Shown piece by piece: positions 23,471 through 31,838 of a stretch of 37,588 nucleotides of DNA. Under the pieces are notes generated by a model. The model was given only the letters and a program-made list of their open reading frames with translations. It made no database searches and was not told the DNA's origin. Each line of letters starts with the position of its first letter. Position 1 is the stretch's first letter. A program made the translations under genes and the position numbers. The DNA is from a virus (lineage: Duplodnaviria; Heunggongvirae; Uroviricota; Caudoviricetes), in IMG/VR virus record IMGVR_UViG_2563366827_000004, positions 1-37,588 of that record; one strand, written 5' to 3'.

Positions 23471-23643
23471 TTCCTCGCACGATGTCTTAGCCACCGGATA
23501 TCCCACAGGTGAGCCGTGTAGTTGAAGGTTTTTACGTCAGATTCTTTTGGGATTGGCTTGCGTTTATTTCTGGAGCGTTTCGTTGGAAGGTATTTGCAGT
23601 TTTCGCAGATGATGTCGGTGATGCTTCGTCGCTGTCGTCTCAT
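23467..23643 (-). CDS. ninE: NinE
   Basis: [51 protein letters not shown]... matches recalled lambda NinE. Confidence 0.85.
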
Positions 23644-24167
23644 TCTGCCCTCCTGACGCCCTGCCCGATCGCCATCAATGCCGCTTTGGATACGGTAGTA
23701 AACATCCGTCGAGGACTGATGAACGGTCGCCAAATCAGCAGCATGGAGCCTTTGCTGTTTCCCTTCTTCTCCAGCCCTGTCGATGGTTCGATAAAATTAA
23801 TCCGTCCATCAGTGATAATGCGAACTTCGTCGACACTCTCCAGAGCCTTGCTGAACCATCCGACTGACATATCCTCTGGCACAAGCATAACTACCGTCTG
23901 TCGCTGTTGTATGCACTGCTCAGCGGCTTTATCCACCCACGGCCTGATATTGCTGTACGGTGGGTTATTCCAGATTGCACCGTGGCTTACCCACTCAGAA
24001 TTGAGCGCGTCGTCGGCCTCAGTTAGCCAGTGAGCACACAGAGCATTTTTGTCGCTCGCTGCCGAATCCAGCCAGAATCCAAACTCAATATCCAGTGCAT
24101 CAAAAAGCCAAAGCGGCGTTTGCCAGCAGTCCTTGTCGTGTGCTGGCGTATTTGATTTGATAGTCAT
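23640..24167 (-). CDS. Phage Dam-like DNA N6-adenine methyltransferase (orphan)
   Basis: 175 aa from [25 protein letters not shown]...; NPPY catalytic motif ([10 protein letters not shown]); no adjacent restriction gene. Confidence 0.7.
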
Positions 24168-24604
24168 GCAGCCCGATCTCCCCATCGCGCTTTCCACTCC
24201 AGAGCCAGTCGCGCTTCGTCTGACCACTTAACGCCACGCTCTGTACCGAATGCCTGTATAAGCTCTAATAGCTCCGCAAATTCGCTTACACGCATCCTGC
24301 TGGTTGACTGGCCTATTACCACAAAGCCATTCCCGGCAAGGTTAGGAACAACATCCTGCTGCTTTAATGCTGCGGTAAACACACACTTCCAGCTTTCTGC
24401 ATCCAGCCAGCGACCATGCCATTCAACCTGACGAGAGACGTCACCTAAGCAGGCCCATAGCTTCCTGTTTTGGTCTAAGCTGCGGTTGCGTTCCTGAATG
24501 GTTACTACGATTGGTTTGGTTGGGTCTGGAAGAATTTGCTGTACTGCGTGAATAGCGTTTTGCTGATGTGCTGGAGATCGAATTTCAAAGGTTAGTTTTT
24601 TCAT
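24164..24604 (-). CDS. ninB: NinB (Orf) recombination mediator
   Basis: From MKKLTFEIRSPAHQQNAIHAVQQILPDPTKPIVV..., near-identical to recalled lambda NinB. Confidence 0.9.
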   Translation of the reverse strand: MKKLTFEIRSPAHQQNAIHAVQQILPDPTKPIVVTIQERNRSLDQNRKLWACLGDVSRQVEWHGRWLDAESWKCVFTAALKQQDVVPNLAGNGFVVIGQSTSRMRVSEFAELLELIQAFGTERGVKWSDEARLALEWKARWGDRAA

Positions 24605-27295: not shown

Positions 27296-27589
27296 TTAAA
27301 ATTCCATTTGTATTTGATCAGAACGCTCGGTTGCCGCCGGGCGTTTTTTATTGGTGAGAATCGAAGCAACTTGTCGTGCCAATCGAGCCATGTCGTCGTC
27401 GACAACACCCCATTCAAGAACAGCAAGCAGCATTGAGAACTTTGGAATCCAGTCCCTCTTCCACCTGCTGATCTGCGACTTATCAACGCCCACAGCTTCC
27501 GCTGTCTTCTCAGTTCCAAGCATTGCGATTTTGTTAAGCAACGCACTCTCGATTCTTAGAGCCTCGTTGCGTTTGTTTGCACGAACCAT
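27296..27589 (-). CDS. cII: Transcriptional activator CII
   Basis: 97 aa from MVRANKRNEALRIESALLNKIAMLGTEKTAEAVGVDKSQISRWKRDWIPKFSMLLAVLEWGV..., near-identical to recalled lambda CII. Confidence 0.95.
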   Translation of the reverse strand: MVRANKRNEALRIESALLNKIAMLGTEKTAEAVGVDKSQISRWKRDWIPKFSMLLAVLEWGVVDDDMARLARQVASILTNKKRPAATERSDQIQMEF

Positions 27590-27600
27590 ATGTAAGTATT

Positions 27601-27640
27601 TCCTTAACAAATAAGAAGTTATGCGCATCAACTTATGCGC
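27601..27640 (-). terminator. tR1-like hairpin between nutR and cII
   Basis: Minus-strand GCGCAU-N6-AUGCGC followed by a U-rich tract; weak. Confidence 0.3.
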
Positions 27641-27647
27641 GTTGTAT

Positions 27648-27691
27648 TCCCGCATTTCGGCGGGAATGAGGACCATGACTGTTAAAGAGCG
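27648..27691 (-). promoter_or_regulatory. nutR (boxA CGCTCTTTAACA and boxB hairpin)
   Basis: Minus-strand boxA is a perfect consensus, followed by a 6-bp stem hairpin UCCCGC-CGAAAU-GCGGGA, between cro and cII. Confidence 0.7.
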
Positions 27692-27697
27692 GTGTTA

Positions 27698-27892
27698 CTA
27701 TTTGTTTTTCTTGTTGCTTGGGAAAGGACGAACTTCCTCTCCAATCACACTGCCATCAGGCTTTACCGTAACCATAATGTTACGGCCTGCCAGAATGGCC
27801 TTGCTGATAGCGCACTGGATTACACCAAAGTCACTGGCTGCTTTAGCCTGTCCATGGATTTTGGCGTAATCGGCAAGTGTCATTCGAATCAT
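27698..27892 (-). CDS. cro: Cro repressor
   Basis: [62 protein letters not shown] aligns with recalled lambda Cro; ATG 27892 sits 6 nt after GGAGA. Confidence 0.9.
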
Positions 27893-27921
27893 ATGCACTC
27901 TCCGTTATTAACCATGAACAA

Positions 27922-27992
27922 AGAATACTACAGGTATTCAAAGCAATCAATACTTAGGGTATTTTTAGTTTAAGTACCTTAGCTATTAGAAT
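27922..27992. promoter_or_regulatory. OR operator region with divergent pR and pRM
   Basis: Palindromic sites AATACTACAGGTATT (27924-27938), AATACTTAGGGTATT (27949-27963) and a degenerate third (about 27972-27987). Minus-strand pR: -35 TTGATT, 17 bp, -10 TATTCT. cI ATG has no SD, so probably leaderless from pRM. Confidence 0.65.
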
Positions 27993-27998
27993 TAAGCT

Positions 27999-28715
27999 AT
28001 GGAAAATAAAAAATCACTGACGACAGAACAGCTGGAAGACGCTAAGCGGCTTAAGGCTTTGTATGAGTCAAAAAAGAAAGAATTGGGAATAACCCAATAC
28101 TCAATCGCTGATGAACTGGGTATCACCCAAGGAGCGGTAGGGCATTATCTTAATGGCAGAAATGCGCTAAACGTTGAGGTTGCATCTGGTTTTGCACGAT
28201 TGTTGCAAGTCTCAATTGCTGATTTTAGCCAGTCAATTGCTGCCAAGGTTGCAGAACAGGCAGAAAGCCTTAAGAGCGATGCCAACGTAAGGTATGCAGG
28301 GGAATACAGAGCAGGAAAGAGGTATCCGGTGTTAAGCAGTATCCAGGCTGGCTCGTGGTGTGAAGCATGCGAACCATACACCATTAAAGACATAGATGTT
28401 TGGCTTGAGTCTGACGCGCATATTCAAGGTAATGCGTTCTGGCTTAAAGTGGAAGGTGATTCAATGACGGCACCGGTTGGGTTAAGCATTCCAGAGGGAA
28501 CATTCGTTCTTTTCGATACCGGAAGGGAGGCGATCAACGGCAGCTTGGTCATAGCAAAACTTTCTGACTCTAACGAAGCAACATTCAAGAAGCTGATAAT
28601 CGACGGCGGAAATAAATACCTCAAGGGACTTAATCCTGCATGGCCTCTCGTGCCAATCAATGGAAACTGCAAGATTATAGGCGTTGCAATTGAGACAAAA
28701 CTCAGACTGGTTTGA
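27999..28715 (+). CDS. cI: CI repressor (lambda-CI-like, LexA-type autocleaving C-terminal domain)
   Basis: 238 aa; aligns with recalled lambda CI along its length (TQEQLEDA.RLKA.YE.KK.ELG...FWL.VEG.SMTAP...FTFKKLI.D) but the HTH recognition-helix region differs. Confidence 0.9.
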   Translation: MENKKSLTTEQLEDAKRLKALYESKKKELGITQYSIADELGITQGAVGHYLNGRNALNVEVASGFARLLQVSIADFSQSIAAKVAEQAESLKSDANVRYAGEYRAGKRYPVLSSIQAGSWCEACEPYTIKDIDVWLESDAHIQGNAFWLKVEGDSMTAPVGLSIPEGTFVLFDTGREAINGSLVIAKLSDSNEATFKKLIIDGGNKYLKGLNPAWPLVPINGNCKIIGVAIETKLRLV

Positions 28716-28733
28716 TCACGCAAGGGGGCGCTT

Positions 28734-29102
28734 ATGGTTGGAACCGCTATAGCAAGCTTTTTTGGGATGTTGGCAATCTCGACAATTTACGGCTTAGCGC
28801 ATGCTTTTATTGCGAAATCTCTATCAGAAAAAATAAGCCAGGCTTGGGCGCATAGATCAGCTCGTTTCATGATTCTGGTGATCATAGCAATACAAGGGAT
28901 ATCTGCATTTATCCTCTATGGATCAAGCTTATACCTATTGTATCAAGGCGCGACATTTACGCCTTACACCAGTGATTACGGAACTCTATACGATGGTAGT
29001 GAAGACATCACTGTGGCTTGGATCGTCTTTGGTTTATCTATGGCCGTGTCTGTTGTAGCAGACATCATTAAGGTAATTCTCGTCTTAACCTTCGCTGACT
29101 AA
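28734..29102 (+). CDS. Hypothetical 3-TM membrane protein, rexAB-position gene
   Basis: 122 aa; AGGGGG RBS 5 nt upstream; starts 18 bp after the cI stop; three hydrophobic segments (about aa 2-27, 45-70, 92-120). Confidence 0.7.
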   Translation: MVGTAIASFFGMLAISTIYGLAHAFIAKSLSEKISQAWAHRSARFMILVIIAIQGISAFILYGSSLYLLYQGATFTPYTSDYGTLYDGSEDITVAWIVFGLSMAVSVVADIIKVILVLTFAD

Positions 29103-29233
29103 CCTATAATCCCGGCAGCAATAGCTATCGGGATCCACTTCACATATCCCGCATAAAAAGCACTGAACAAGCAGACACCGAAAAAATAAATATCCTTTGT
29201 ATTCATTTGCTTATCATTATTTCATCAAAAATA

Positions 29234-29275
29234 AATACCTTGGGTATTTACACAATAAAATACCTACAGTATTCT
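29234..29275 (+). promoter_or_regulatory. OL operators and pL promoter
   Basis: AATACCTTGGGTATT (29234-29248) and AATACCTACAGTATT (29259-29273), same palindrome family as OR; -35 TTTACA (29247-29252), 17 bp, -10 TATTCT (29270-29275). Confidence 0.6.
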
Positions 29276-29321
29276 TTAGCCATCAGCAGGAAGCTGGAAG
29301 CCAAACGGAAAAGATTGGCAG

Positions 29322-29362
29322 GCTCTTTAACATTGATGGGATTGTCCCGCCGAAATGCGGGA
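29322..29362 (+). promoter_or_regulatory. nutL (boxA GCTCTTTAACA and boxB hairpin)
   Basis: boxB TCCCGC-CGAAAT-GCGGGA is identical to the nutR boxB. Confidence 0.7.
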
Positions 29363-29469
29363 ACCAAAGAGTAATTGGCTTTGGGGTGACGTGAAGTGCA
29401 GCTGCACGACGGCAACCGGAAGATAAGCACCCGGCGCGTCACCGCCAAAGTCAATCATCGGAGGTCAAC

Positions 29470-29769
29470 ATGACAGTAGTCATTACATATCTGGCTGACG
29501 ATAACGCCAGAAATCGCCGCAGAGCACGCAGACAGGCTCAACGTGAACAGGCGATGCAAGAACAGCGACTGGCGCGAAAAATTGCGCTAAAGCTCTCTGG
29601 TTGCGTCAGAGCGGATAAAGCAGCATCACTCGGAATCCTTCGCTGCAAGAAGGCAGATGAAGTCGAGAGTAAACAGAATCGTATTTACTACCGCAAGCCA
29701 CGCAGTGAAATGGGTGTGACTTGTGTTGGTCGCCAGAAAATGAAATTAGGCAGCAAACCACTTATTTGA
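29470..29769 (+). CDS. N: N-like antitermination protein
   Basis: 99 aa, first gene after pL/nutL, GGAGG RBS, N-terminal arginine-rich motif DNARNRRRARRQAQREQ. Confidence 0.7.
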   Translation: MTVVITYLADDNARNRRRARRQAQREQAMQEQRLARKIALKLSGCVRADKAASLGILRCKKADEVESKQNRIYYRKPRSEMGVTCVGRQKMKLGSKPLI

Positions 29770-29780
29770 GAGGAATTAAT

Positions 29781-30404
29781 ATGTCATCAATCCGCTTAAC
29801 TACGAGAATGAAAGAGGAAATCGCTCGTAACGCTTTAATTAAGTCTGGGGTTTTCACTGAACTTGAAGAAGTAACAAAGTTAAAGAACCAGCTTGCACTT
29901 GACGCCAGAGTTATTGCGTTTGGCGGTAAAAAGAAAACTGAGGAAGTGGATCGGTTATCATCCAAGTTAGCAGCTATAAGTGAAGAACTTGAGAAGATGG
30001 GATGTTCATTTTACTCATGCGATGTTCGTTCTGCTTCGATTTATCTGACTGTATCTGGAAGAAGGGTTGGCTGGCATTCATACGGAAAAGACGGCAACGG
30101 TGAAGATATATTGCTCCCCACCCCAGAAAAAGATAAATGCATGTTTGACGCAGAACACGAAATAACAAAAAGGTTTGATGAAATCTGCGCATTGCAACAA
30201 AAACTTGAAGCCAAGAAAAAGGATATCGAATCAAATGTATGGGCTGCTTTGAACTCAGTCACAACAGTTAAGCGACTTATTGAAGTTTGGCCTGAAAGCA
30301 AAGAATTGCTACCAAAAGAAGCAGATAAAGCAAGTACAGCACTTCCTGCTTTACGGGTAGAAGATTTGAATAAGATGATTGGACTTCCTTCCGAGGCCGC
30401 ATAG
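29781..30404 (+). CDS. Hypothetical 207-aa protein co-transcribed with N
   Basis: ATG at 29781 with GAGAGGAA RBS, 12 bp after the N stop; soluble, no recognised motif. Confidence 0.7.
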   Translation: MSSIRLTTRMKEEIARNALIKSGVFTELEEVTKLKNQLALDARVIAFGGKKKTEEVDRLSSKLAAISEELEKMGCSFYSCDVRSASIYLTVSGRRVGWHSYGKDGNGEDILLPTPEKDKCMFDAEHEITKRFDEICALQQKLEAKKKDIESNVWAALNSVTTVKRLIEVWPESKELLPKEADKASTALPALRVEDLNKMIGLPSEAA

Positions 30405-30419
30405 TCGGCCTTTATTTTT
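30394..30419 (+). terminator. Intrinsic terminator overlapping the stop of the 207-aa gene
   Basis: AGGCCG-CATAGT-CGGCCT followed by TTATTTTT. Confidence 0.6.
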
Positions 30420-30448
30420 GGCATAAACAACAGAATAAACACTGCACT

Positions 30449-30476
30449 GTGTATTCATTCCAACGAGTGAATACAC
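30449..30476. promoter_or_regulatory. 12-bp inverted repeat (gtgtattcattc-caac-gagtgaatacac, 11/12 match)
   Basis: Seen directly between two terminators; no T-run follows. Confidence 0.3.
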
Positions 30477-30538
30477 GGAGCAATGTCGCTCGTAACTAAA
30501 CAGGAGCCGACTTGTTCTGATTATTGGAAATCTTCTTT

Positions 30539-30564
30539 GCCCTCCTATGTGAGGGCAATTTTTT
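30539..30564 (+). terminator. Second intrinsic terminator, immediately before the coiled-coil gene
   Basis: GCCCTC-CTATGT-GAGGGC followed by AATTTTTT, 12 bp before the GGAGG RBS. Confidence 0.55.
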
Positions 30565-30576
30565 GACGGAGGATAT

Positions 30577-31545
30577 ATGAGTGAAGTAACAGATTTAGTT
30601 GTTATTGAAAAAGCAAATGCAATGACTGTATTTCAGTCTGCCGACCAGATTGAAGAAATCCTTCAAAAGGTTGAACGTGAAGTTATGTCCTTTGTGCCTG
30701 ATATCACAACGGCAAAGGGCAGAAAGGAGATCGCTTCTCTGGCGTATAAAGTTGCGCAAACGAAAACATATCTCGATGGTCTTGGAAAAGACCTTGTTGC
30801 TGAACTGAAGGAAATTCCAAAGCTAATTGATGCCAACCGCAAGACAGTGCGTGATCGCCTTGATGAGCTGAAAGCCAAGGCACGCCAGCCTCTTACTGAT
30901 TATGAGGAGGAGCAGGCGCGGATTAAAGCCGAAGAAGAGGCTAAGGCAGCAGCTGAAGCTCTCGCAAAGCAAATTGAGTCTGACCATGAAATAGCGATTT
31001 TGATGGATCGCGAATTTGACCGCCAAAGAGAAGAGGCAAGACTCAAAGCGGAGCAGGAAAAGCGAGAGCATGAAGAACGCTTAAAAAGAGAAGCTGAAGA
31101 GAAAGCCAGAGCAGAAGCCGAAGCAAAGGCAAAAGCCGAAATTGAAGCAGCAGCAAGGCGAGAAGCAGAGGCTAAGGCCGCAGCGGAACGTGCAGAGCGT
31201 GAACGCATTGAAGCCGAGCAACGAGCACAGCGCGAAGCAAAAGAGGCAGCAGAACGGGCTGAAAGAGAAAAGCAGGCGGCAATTGAAGCAGAACGCCGAA
31301 AAGCACAGGAGGAGGCAGAACGAATCCGGCGCGAGGCTGAAGCAAAAGAGCAAGCCAGAATAGCAGAAGAAAAAAGAATCAAGGACGAAGAAGAGCGTAG
31401 AGCAAAGGATAAAGCTCACCGGAAAGAAGTAAATAACAAAATACTTGCTGACCTTATCAAGGTTGGCGCATCAGAAGATGTTGCTAAAAATATCATAACA
31501 GCCATCGTAAAAGGCGAAGTATTCGCAACAAAAATAACCTACTAA
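30577..31545 (+). CDS. Hypothetical protein with a long E/R/K/A-rich helical repeat region
   Basis: 322 aa; about 150 central residues are almost only E, A, R, K, Q; globular-looking N- and C-termini; GGAGG RBS. Confidence 0.7.
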   Translation: MSEVTDLVVIEKANAMTVFQSADQIEEILQKVEREVMSFVPDITTAKGRKEIASLAYKVAQTKTYLDGLGKDLVAELKEIPKLIDANRKTVRDRLDELKAKARQPLTDYEEEQARIKAEEEAKAAAEALAKQIESDHEIAILMDREFDRQREEARLKAEQEKREHEERLKREAEEKARAEAEAKAKAEIEAAARREAEAKAAAERAERERIEAEQRAQREAKEAAERAEREKQAAIEAERRKAQEEAERIRREAEAKEQARIAEEKRIKDEEERRAKDKAHRKEVNNKILADLIKVGASEDVAKNIITAIVKGEVFATKITY

Positions 31546-31569
31546 TAAAACCAACATAAGGAACCACCC

Positions 31570-31701
31570 ATGATTTACGCAATCGCGGGAGGCGCTCGCA
31601 TGGGTGCCTTCCAACTAAATGAATCTTTACTTGAACGAATCACCCGTAAATTACGTGACGGATGGAAAAGAGTTGAGATCTTATTATGCGCAATGAAATA
31701 G
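31570..31701 (+). CDS. Possible small protein (43 aa)
   Basis: ATG 31570 after AAGGAA; below the track cutoff. Confidence 0.3.
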   Translation: MIYAIAGGARMGAFQLNESLLERITRKLRDGWKRVEILLCAMK

Positions 31702-31838
31702 CCATCAATCACCAGATGCTTCGTGCTGCACAGAACAAAGCAGTAATAGCCAGATTTATTGGTGATTCAAAAATGTGGCTTGAAGCAAATAAAGCGATGA
31801 AATCAGCTATCAACCTTCCGTGGTATCGCAGGAAATGA
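31686..31838 (+). CDS. Possible small protein (50 aa)
   Basis: Overlaps the previous ORF; stop overlaps the next start (ATGA). Confidence 0.3.
   Translation: MRNEIAINHQMLRAAQNKAVIARFIGDSKMWLEANKAMKSAINLPWYRRK

What the first reader, a model, noticed from the sequence alone, without database searches (positions are those of the whole stretch)
29781..30564. 207-aa unknown protein fused to the N transcript and fenced off by two intrinsic terminators
The ORF at 29781 begins 12 bp after the N stop, so it is made with N before any antitermination decision. It is followed by a strong terminator (30394-30419), a 12-bp palindrome and a second terminator (30539-30564). Lambda and P22 place ral, sieB and similar host-interaction genes here. 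The protein is soluble, has a coiled region and a Cys/His-bearing centre, and matches nothing I know. An immediate-early position is where anti-restriction or anti-defence factors are usually found.
Basis: partly seen in the sequence, partly recalled or inferred. Interest (0 to 1): 0.65.

Follow-up and report, generated by a model that had tools for sequence, protein, structure and literature searches.

The report
Nmad5-family early gene after phage N

Summary
A 207-codon ORF (29781-30404) starts 11 nt after the N stop. An intrinsic terminator follows (30393-30419, stop codon in its loop), then a 14-bp hairpin (30447-30478) and a second terminator (30537-30564). pL, its operators, nutL and a matching nutR are all present, so co-transcription with N before antitermination is a sound inference.

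The protein is not an orphan. It matches Pfam PF18757 (Nmad5) over its full length (E 6e-71), and RefSeq already names it. Copies 95-99% identical occur in mEp235, HK542, many Stx phages and about 4% of complete E. coli genomes.

The hairpin and second terminator are lambda's ral-ea10 spacer (tL2A), about 97% identical and present in 41% of E. coli genomes.

Function is untested. No solved fold matches, no catalytic-looking residues are conserved, and there are no domain fusions. Relatives sit in phage replication, recombination and DNA-modification modules, or again directly after N.

My best guess is a non-essential, non-catalytic early accessory protein that acts on phage or host DNA metabolism, possibly protecting phage DNA. 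It is a known family with modest interest.

The parts
29234..29273 (.). OL operators: two 15-bp sites of the form AATACCNNNRGTATT, at 29234-29248 and 29259-29273, overlapping the -35 and -10 of pL
   Evidence: exact matches here, and three more between cro and cI at 27924-27987. There are 14 matches in the window against 3.0 expected.
29247..29275 (+). pL promoter (TTTACA, 17 nt, TATTCT)
   Evidence: This is the only sigma-70-like site found in 28600-31800, and the operators flank it.
29322..29361 (+). nutL: boxA GCTCTTTAAC plus the boxB hairpin CCCGCCGAAATGCGGG
   Evidence: an identical boxA and boxB pair lies at 27690-27649 (-), which is nutR between cro and cII, with 0 expected by chance. 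boxB folds at -10.5 kcal/mol.
29470..29769 (+). N antiterminator gene (99 aa, arginine-rich motif NARNRRRARRQAQRE)
   Evidence: phrog_271 'anti-termination protein N-like' at E 2.9e-36. Pfam N_peptide gives a weak hit, E 0.0016. Paired nut sites are present.
29781..30404 (+). Nmad5-family gene (207 aa), with RBS GAGG at 29770-29773
   Evidence: PF18757 at E 5.9e-71, profile positions 1-206 of 206. phrog_1965 at E 2.7e-83. NCBI names it 'Nmad5 family putative nucleotide modification protein'. The AF2 model has pLDDT 85. Purifying selection is seen. GC is 40.9% against 47.7% for the window.
30393..30419 (+). First intrinsic terminator of the pL operon (functional counterpart of tL1); the stop codon lies in its loop
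   Evidence: It travels with the gene in related loci: a strict pattern found it in 52 of 75. It aligns with the 3' end of lambda ral.
30447..30478 (+). 14-bp RNA hairpin with a 4-nt loop and two G.U pairs, so it is stronger on the pL strand
   Evidence: -18.8 kcal/mol on the + strand against -13.1 on the - strand. Identical in lambda, mEp235 and HK542.
30537..30564 (+). Second intrinsic terminator, homologous to tL2A of lambda and HK620
   Evidence: The HK620 record annotates the aligned hairpin as 'tL2A'. HK97 annotates it as a putative terminator.
30394..30566 (+). Conserved lambdoid spacer (lambda ral-ea10 intergenic region) that joins mosaic modules
   Evidence: About 97% identical to lambda. 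Present in 2237 of 5426 complete E. coli genomes and 331 phage records. Positions 30420-30566 fold at -50.3 kcal/mol, z -5.9.

Best explanation
The ORF is a genuine gene for a stand-alone member of the Nmad5 family (Pfam PF18757). It is the second cistron of the N-independent, immediate-early pL transcript, in the order pL, nutL, N, this gene, first terminator. It is therefore made together with N at the very start of infection or induction and is silent in the lysogen. That much is shown or follows directly from the sequence.

The terminator, hairpin and second terminator that follow are ordinary lambda-type pL punctuation. The first terminator plays the role of tL1. The hairpin and second terminator are the conserved tL2A spacer. 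N-modified polymerase reads through both.

The function is inferred. I think the protein is a non-essential, non-catalytic accessory factor of phage DNA metabolism. It most likely binds a partner, either a host or phage DNA-handling protein or DNA itself, through its near-invariant C-terminal segment (T162-x-K-R-L-x3-W170-P-E-x2-E-L-x-P ... L-P-A ... L-N-x2-I-G-L-P). Its role would be to protect or favour phage DNA while that DNA is first replicated, recombined or modified. That makes it a positional, and possibly functional, counterpart of lambda Ral, not a nucleotide-modifying enzyme.
For: Identity and transcription unit.

Same architecture elsewhere: the gene follows diverse N alleles or Nun in 80 close loci. 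In a lineage only 58% identical it again follows a different N and is again closed by a terminator.

Non-catalytic look:
- Across 54 diverse members the only invariant or near-invariant residues are G48, G49, G93, R43, T162, L166, W170, P171, E172, L176, P178, L196, N197, G201 and P203.
- No Cys, His or Asp position is conserved.
- There are no domain fusions among 124 homologues.

DNA-metabolism context:
- In 25 distinct groups, the genes within three positions are enriched for DUF2800 nuclease (8 groups), gp2.5-type ssDNA-binding protein (8) and family A polymerase (6).
- Other neighbours include ThyX or dU hydroxymethylase, 3'-5' exonucleases, Dam, MT-A70 and C5 methylases, and a PurZ/DatZ cluster.
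- In this window the same operon carries Rad52-type, SSB and Abc2 genes.

Accessory and host-directed:
- The gene is present in about 210 E. coli genomes, against 2237 that have the spacer.
- Its GC content is low.
- A Dhillonvirus nmad5 deletion is viable, the gene could not be cloned (apparent toxicity), and a single K-to-E change lets the phage escape the Tmn defence whereas deletion does not (PMC11846954).
- That residue aligns with R165 in the conserved C-terminal motif.

Same slot and same 3' junction as lambda ral.
Against: There is no experimental datum for this protein or any close relative. The only genetics comes from a homologue about 25% identical. No partner has been identified.

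The recurrent position between the ssDNA-binding protein and the polymerase in one phage group looks more like a core replication function than a host-interaction factor.

The protein shows no similarity to Ral or to any catalogued defence-related model.

Co-transcription with N and termination at 30419 are inferred from sequence alone. Rho-dependent termination or processing inside the unit cannot be excluded.

A catalytic role that relies on poorly conserved or backbone groups cannot be ruled out by alignment.
Confidence: 0.4

Rival explanations
1. The protein is a dedicated replication or recombination accessory, for example a partner of the phage ssDNA-binding or annealing protein or of the polymerase. 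It would have no role against host defences. In the lambdoid phage it would assist the Rad52-type/SSB recombination genes of the same operon.
For: The gene order DUF2800 nuclease, gp2.5-like SSB, Nmad5, PolA is conserved in 7-8 of 25 groups, inside the known duf2800-gp2.5-polA module (PMC8093625). The gene lies directly upstream of PolA in phage Scuro, next to a primase-helicase in L109, and next to RecE and a replication initiator in a Vibrio phage. Rad52/22, SSB and Abc2 lie downstream in this window.
Against: Lambdoid phages have no PolA and use varied recombinases (Bet, Erf, Rad52, Sak4), yet carry the same Nmad5 protein. The gene is missing from most phages that have those modules. It is dispensable in Dhillonvirus. 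In Dhillonvirus and L262 it sits beside head genes, away from replication genes. Expression before N acts is earlier than the recombination genes it would serve.
Confidence: 0.25
2. The protein is what the family name says: an enzyme or essential subunit of a nucleotide or DNA base-modification pathway.
For: The family was named for its neighbourhood. In Yua-like and Vojvodina-like phages it lies in or beside the thymidine hypermodification cassette (PMC9476957). Elsewhere it lies next to PurZ/DatZ, MT-A70, Dam, a C5 methylase and ThyX. This phage also encodes a Dam-family methylase at 23640-24227, though in the other early operon.
Against: No conserved catalytic-type residues. No enzyme-like fold match. 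No cofactor-binding motif. The pL operon here has no modification gene, and in the neighbour census of 25 groups no methylase or other modification family ranked among the families shared by more than one group. Modification genes in phages are usually embedded in replication modules, so the association may be indirect.
Confidence: 0.1
3. The protein is a prophage-expressed exclusion or immunity factor, like sieB or rex, which occupy neighbouring positions in lambda.
For: Neighbouring slots in lambda and HK620 hold sieB-type genes.
Against: The gene is on the pL strand, 11 nt behind N. No promoter-like site of its own was found, and pL is flanked by repressor operators, so the gene should be off in a lysogen. 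There is no PADLOC match. Homologues occur in strictly virulent phages.
Confidence: 0.03

Closest known systems
Pfam PF18757 / InterPro IPR040835 'Nucleotide modification associated domain 5' (Nmad5); PHROG 1965
   Same: Full-length, single-domain match far above threshold (239 bits against a cut-off of 27). The protein has the family's length and its conserved GG, WPE..EL.P and LN..IGLP motifs.
   Different: Nothing differs in sequence terms. The family name implies a role that has never been tested, and the local gene neighbourhood here does not reproduce it.
Identical or near-identical genes in published phages: mEp235_037, HK542_033, Stx1a/Stx2a-converting phages, PhiR12 phages, Kapi1
   Same: 95-99% identical. 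They occupy the same position after N (or after Nun) and are followed by the same terminator and spacer.
   Different: The upstream N allele and the downstream genes vary, which is normal lambdoid mosaicism. All copies are annotated 'hypothetical protein'.
Lambda ral / sieB segment and the tL1-tL2A terminators of the pL operon
   Same: The protein fills the same slot between N and the tL2A spacer. The 3' end of the module and the 170-bp spacer align at about 97% with lambda. Expression is early and pL-driven.
   Different: There is no sequence similarity to Ral. Lambda has tL1 before ral, whereas here the first terminator comes after the gene, so this gene is N-independent and ral is not.
Dhillonvirus Nmad5 (phages SM_A8, SM_S22), implicated in escape from the Tmn defence
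   Same: Same Pfam family. The escape substitution K216E/K296E falls on the residue that aligns with R165, in the most conserved motif.
   Different: Only about 25% identical, and 254 aa long with a large insertion. It is a lone gene on the opposite strand inside the head-gene cluster of a virulent phage.

Membership tests
Nmad5 (PF18757) | Full-length match to the family profile above the curated threshold | tested here: met
   E 5.9e-71, 239.2 bits against a 27-bit cut-off; residues 4-203 match profile positions 1-206 of 206.
Nmad5 (PF18757) | Family-wide conserved motifs (N-terminal RL..I..NA..K.G, the GG turn, G93, T..L...WPE..EL.P, LPA...LN..IGLP) | tested here: met
   All are present in the window protein. 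Conservation was tabulated over 54 diverse members.
Nmad5 (PF18757) | Genomic association with nucleotide or base-modification genes (the basis of the name) | tested here: not met
   Neighbours here are N, a coiled-coil protein, cIII, Rad52/22, SSB and Abc2. The only methylase (Dam, 23640-24227) lies in the other early operon, 5.5 kb away. The association does hold in some relatives.
Nmad5 (PF18757) | A defined biochemical activity | not testable with these tools
   None has been reported. The literature search found only four papers that mention the family.
Lambda-type N-dependent pL early operon | Repressor-controlled promoter, nutL with boxA/boxB matched by a nutR, and N with an arginine-rich motif | tested here: met
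Lambda-type N-dependent pL early operon | Intrinsic terminators that stop unmodified polymerase (tL1, tL2A) | tested here: met
   There are two hairpin-plus-U-tract sites. The second is homologous to the annotated tL2A of HK620. Actual termination has not been measured.
Anti-restriction / anti-defence proteins (Ral, DNA mimics such as Ocr/ArdA) | Sequence similarity to Ral, or strongly acidic DNA-mimic composition | tested here: not met
   No BLASTP alignment to lambda Ral. pI 6.2 and net charge -1.
Anti-restriction / anti-defence proteins (Ral, DNA mimics such as Ocr/ArdA) | Measured relief of a host defence | not testable with these tools
   There is only indirect genetics from a distant homologue (Tmn escape, PMC11846954).

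The most novel reading that the evidence does not exclude
Nmad5 is mis-named. On this reading it is a widespread, non-enzymatic early effector, the functional successor of Ral in this slot, that neutralises a host nuclease or defence acting on freshly injected or replicating phage DNA. Its conserved C-terminal motif would be the binding surface, and single substitutions there would retune which host system is blocked, as the Tmn-escape mutants suggest.
Probability: 0.2. Interest if true: 0.6.

Novelty: already known. Interest (0 to 1): 0.27.

Why it matters
About 4% of complete E. coli genomes carry this gene, including many Shiga-toxin prophages. It is expressed in the first minute of the lytic programme, and its family has more than 2300 clusters at 50% identity, yet no member has a known activity. 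Showing what it does would put a function on one of the commoner unnamed early genes of enterobacterial phages. It would also test whether the database label 'nucleotide modification protein' is misleading. As a sequence feature, though, it is neither new nor unusual.

Tried and rejected
- Rfam over the whole window at gathering thresholds found nothing. A permissive scan of 29100-30700 gave only chance-level hits (RyhB, E 1.6).
- NCBIfam and PADLOC gave no model for the protein.
- A sequence search of PDB chains returned only coiled-coil noise.
- I looked for domain fusions as a functional clue. All 124 homologues are single-domain.
- I tested the 'Cys/His centre' as a metal site. It is not conserved.
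- I tested the DNA-mimic idea. The composition is not acidic.
- I asked whether a terminator after the gene is a family trait. It occurs in only 2 of 25 groups against 52 of 327 control genes, so it is a lambdoid feature, not a family one.
- The species-genome scan would not run with the broad alignments. With the narrow alignment it found only four species.
- A literature search for tL2/tL1 was swamped by unrelated hits. The tL2A identification therefore rests on the HK620 record annotation.
- My first guess at the operator spacing was wrong and was corrected.

Full report
**What is in the sequence**

The window is a lambdoid (P22/HK620-like mosaic) phage genome.
- The immunity region holds cII (27296-27676, -), cro (27698-27898, -) and a CI-type repressor (27999-28715, +).
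- Three 15-bp operators of the form AATACCNNNRGTATT lie between cro and cI, and two more lie at 29234-29248 and 29259-29273.
- The latter two overlap the only sigma-70-like promoter found in 28600-31800 (TTTACA, 17 nt, TATTCT, 29247-29275, + strand). This is pL.
- Forty-seven bases downstream lies a boxA/boxB pair (GCTCTTTAAC ... CCCGCCGAAATGCGGG, 29322-29361). The same pair is repeated exactly on the other strand between cro and cII (27690-27649), with none expected by chance. These are nutL and nutR.
- The 99-codon ORF at 29470-29769 has an arginine-rich N-terminus and matches the PHROG family of N-like antiterminators (E 2.9e-36). Its Pfam N_peptide hit is weak.

- The target ORF starts at 29781, 11 nt after the N stop, behind a GAGG. 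It runs to TAG at 30402-30404 (207 aa).
- The stop codon lies in the loop of a 7-bp G+C-rich hairpin followed by UAUUUUU (30393-30419; -11 kcal/mol).
- A 14-bp hairpin follows at 30447-30478 (-18.8 kcal/mol, z -5.3).
- A second hairpin-plus-U6 terminator lies at 30537-30564 (-13.2 kcal/mol, z -4.6).
- No terminator-like site on the + strand lies between pL and 30393.
- The inference that unmodified polymerase makes an RNA of about 1.1 kb carrying N and this gene is therefore reasonable. It remains an inference from sequence.
- The gene is real. Among 55 distinct alleles from related loci, differences pile up at third codon positions (725 against about 250 at each of the other two), and synonymous changes are over-represented.

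**The protein is not an orphan**

- It matches Pfam PF18757, 'Nucleotide modification associated domain 5' (Nmad5), over the whole profile (E 5.9e-71). It also matches PHROG 1965, function unknown.
- NCBI already names its relatives 'Nmad5 family putative nucleotide modification protein'.
- Genes 95-99% identical sit in phages mEp235, HK542, Kapi1 and the PhiR12 phages, and in dozens of Stx1a- and Stx2a-converting phages.
- The same gene is present in about 210 of 5426 complete E. coli genomes.
- An exhaustive profile search found 2315 clusters at 50% identity. Almost all are stand-alone proteins of about 200 residues.

**The 'fence' is standard lambda punctuation**

- The stretch 30394-30566 aligns at about 97% with the lambda ral-ea10 intergenic region. 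It is invariant in mEp235 and HK542.
- The HK620 record annotates the aligned second hairpin as tL2A, and HK97 annotates it as a putative terminator.
- This spacer is present in 2237 of 5426 E. coli genomes, ten times more than carry the gene. In those genomes it follows ral, small unknown ORFs, or other cargo.
- The first terminator travels with the Nmad5 gene and aligns with the 3' end of lambda ral.
- So the gene occupies the variable slot between N and the tL2A spacer, which lambda fills with sieB, orf28 and ral.
- In 80 close loci the gene follows several different N alleles, the HK022-type Nun, or a small unrelated ORF.
- In a lineage only 58% identical (L159 group) it again follows a different N, 20 nt behind it, with that phage's own pL and nutL, and it again ends in a terminator that overlaps the stop codon.
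- Across the wider family a terminator right after the gene is not typical (2 of 25 groups). The terminator is a property of lambdoid pL operons, not of Nmad5.

**What the protein looks like**

- AlphaFold2 gives a confident model (pLDDT 85, pTM 0.70). It has three N-terminal helices, a small beta-sheet, a long helix and a short helical C-terminal region whose last 25 residues are low-confidence.
- Over 54 diverse members the invariant or near-invariant positions are glycines, prolines and hydrophobics, plus R43, T162, E172 and N197.
- There are no domain fusions in 124 homologues.
- The protein is near neutral (pI 6.2), so it is not a DNA mimic.
- None of this looks like an enzyme. The strongest conservation is in the C-terminal segment T162-x-K-R-L-x3-W-P-E-x2-E-L-x-P ... 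L-P-A ... L-N-x2-I-G-L-P, which looks like a binding module.

**Where relatives sit**

I reduced 80 distant viral loci to 25 groups (below 80% identity) and scanned the three genes on either side.
- The commonest neighbours were DUF2800 PD-(D/E)XK nuclease (8 groups), the gp2.5/Enc34-type ssDNA-binding protein (8) and family A DNA polymerase (6).
- The recurring order was nuclease, SSB, Nmad5, polymerase. That places the gene inside the known duf2800-gp2.5-polA module (PMC8093625).

Other contexts:
- directly after a CI-type repressor or after N;
- beside a primase-helicase;
- beside RecE and a replication initiator;
- after ThyX in N4-like phages;
- in or beside the thymidine-hypermodification cassette of Yua-like and Vojvodina-like phages;
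- beside a PurZ/DatZ cluster;
- one gene away from MT-A70 or Dam methylases, and three genes from a C5 methylase, in other temperate phages;
- as a lone gene next to portal and MuF head genes in Dhillonvirus and one metagenomic phage.

The common denominator is early DNA metabolism. Base-modification genes are one frequent companion, not a constant one. In this window the operon continues with cIII, a Rad52/22 recombinase, SSB and Abc2. The only methylase (Dam) lies in the nin region of the other operon.

**The only genetics**

In Dhillonvirus phages, mutants that escape the Tmn defence carry K216E (SM_A8) or K296E (SM_S22) in nmad5. Reverting the mutation restores sensitivity. Deleting nmad5 is tolerated and does not give escape. 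The gene could not be cloned, apparently because it is toxic (PMC11846954). I fetched both phage genes and aligned them. The mutated lysine aligns with R165 of the window protein, inside the most conserved motif. This shows three things:
- the family is dispensable;
- it acts on the host cell;
- its C-terminal motif is functionally sensitive.

It does not reveal the activity.

**Best reading**

Shown:
- it is a real gene and a member of Nmad5;
- it is the second cistron of the pL unit, upstream of the first terminator;
- the downstream hairpin and terminator are the lambda tL2A spacer.

Inferred, at about 0.4:
- it is an accessory, non-catalytic early protein that binds a host or phage DNA-handling partner and favours or protects phage DNA during the first steps of replication, recombination or modification.

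Rivals:
- a pure replication or recombination accessory (0.25);
- a genuine modification enzyme or subunit (0.1);
- a lysogen-expressed exclusion factor (0.03).

**Verdict**

However, the protein is already catalogued, the gene is common in published phages, and the terminators are generic. Novelty: already known, as a family of unknown function. Interest is modest. What remains open is the function of a widespread early gene whose database name is probably guilt by association.

Noticed in passing
window 30420-30566 (+): The spacer between the two terminators folds into a very stable RNA (-50.3 kcal/mol, z -5.9). It has a 14-bp hairpin with two G.U pairs, so it is 5.7 kcal/mol stronger on the pL strand. 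An A/U-rich single-stranded stretch and a terminator follow, which together look like an sRNA-type 3' end. The element is about 97% identical to lambda, occurs in 41% of complete E. coli genomes (up to 6 copies per genome), and has no Rfam family. It also contains a possible 27-codon ORF starting at 30483.
   Followed up: partly
window 29099-29206 (-) and 28734-29102 (+): A 35-codon, very hydrophobic ORF lies antisense between the repressor operon and OL. It overlaps by 4 nt, tail to tail, the 122-residue membrane protein (phrog_6534, unknown function) that follows cI in the rexB-like slot. This could be an exclusion or toxin-like pair expressed in the lysogen.
   Followed up: no
L006 and 10 similar IMG/VR loci, upstream of the Nmad5 gene: In these prophages the ORF ahead of an identical Nmad5 gene is not N. 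It is an 88-residue protein with a C2H2-like motif (CPLCGRKF...HINDYH), 136 nt upstream. Other loci have a 66-residue unknown ORF there.
   Followed up: no
phage records LC616035-LC616070 (Stx2a-converting phages): In this group of Stx2a phages only residues 34-207 of the protein are matched, with a second matching place in each record. The copy may be truncated at its 5' end or split.
   Followed up: no
L257 5001-9789 (metagenomic phage contig): An Nmad5 homologue lies between a family A polymerase and an RNase T-like exonuclease. Directly upstream of these is an adenylosuccinate-synthetase-like (PurZ-type), dATP/dGTP pyrophosphohydrolase and HD-phosphohydrolase set, the gene signature of diaminopurine (Z-base) genomes.
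   Followed up: no
window 30577-31545 (+): A 322-residue protein with a long Glu/Lys/Ala/Arg-rich coiled-coil centre (phrog_1376, no Pfam match) occupies the lambda ea10 slot between tL2A and cIII (31570-31701).
   Followed up: no
window 23640-24227 (-): A Dam-family N6-adenine methyltransferase (PF05869, E 1.4e-64) lies in the nin region and overlaps the end of ninB. The same methylase family lies one gene downstream of Nmad5 in an Aeromonas prophage (L260). Whether the two genes co-occur across lambdoid phages was not tested.
   Followed up: partly
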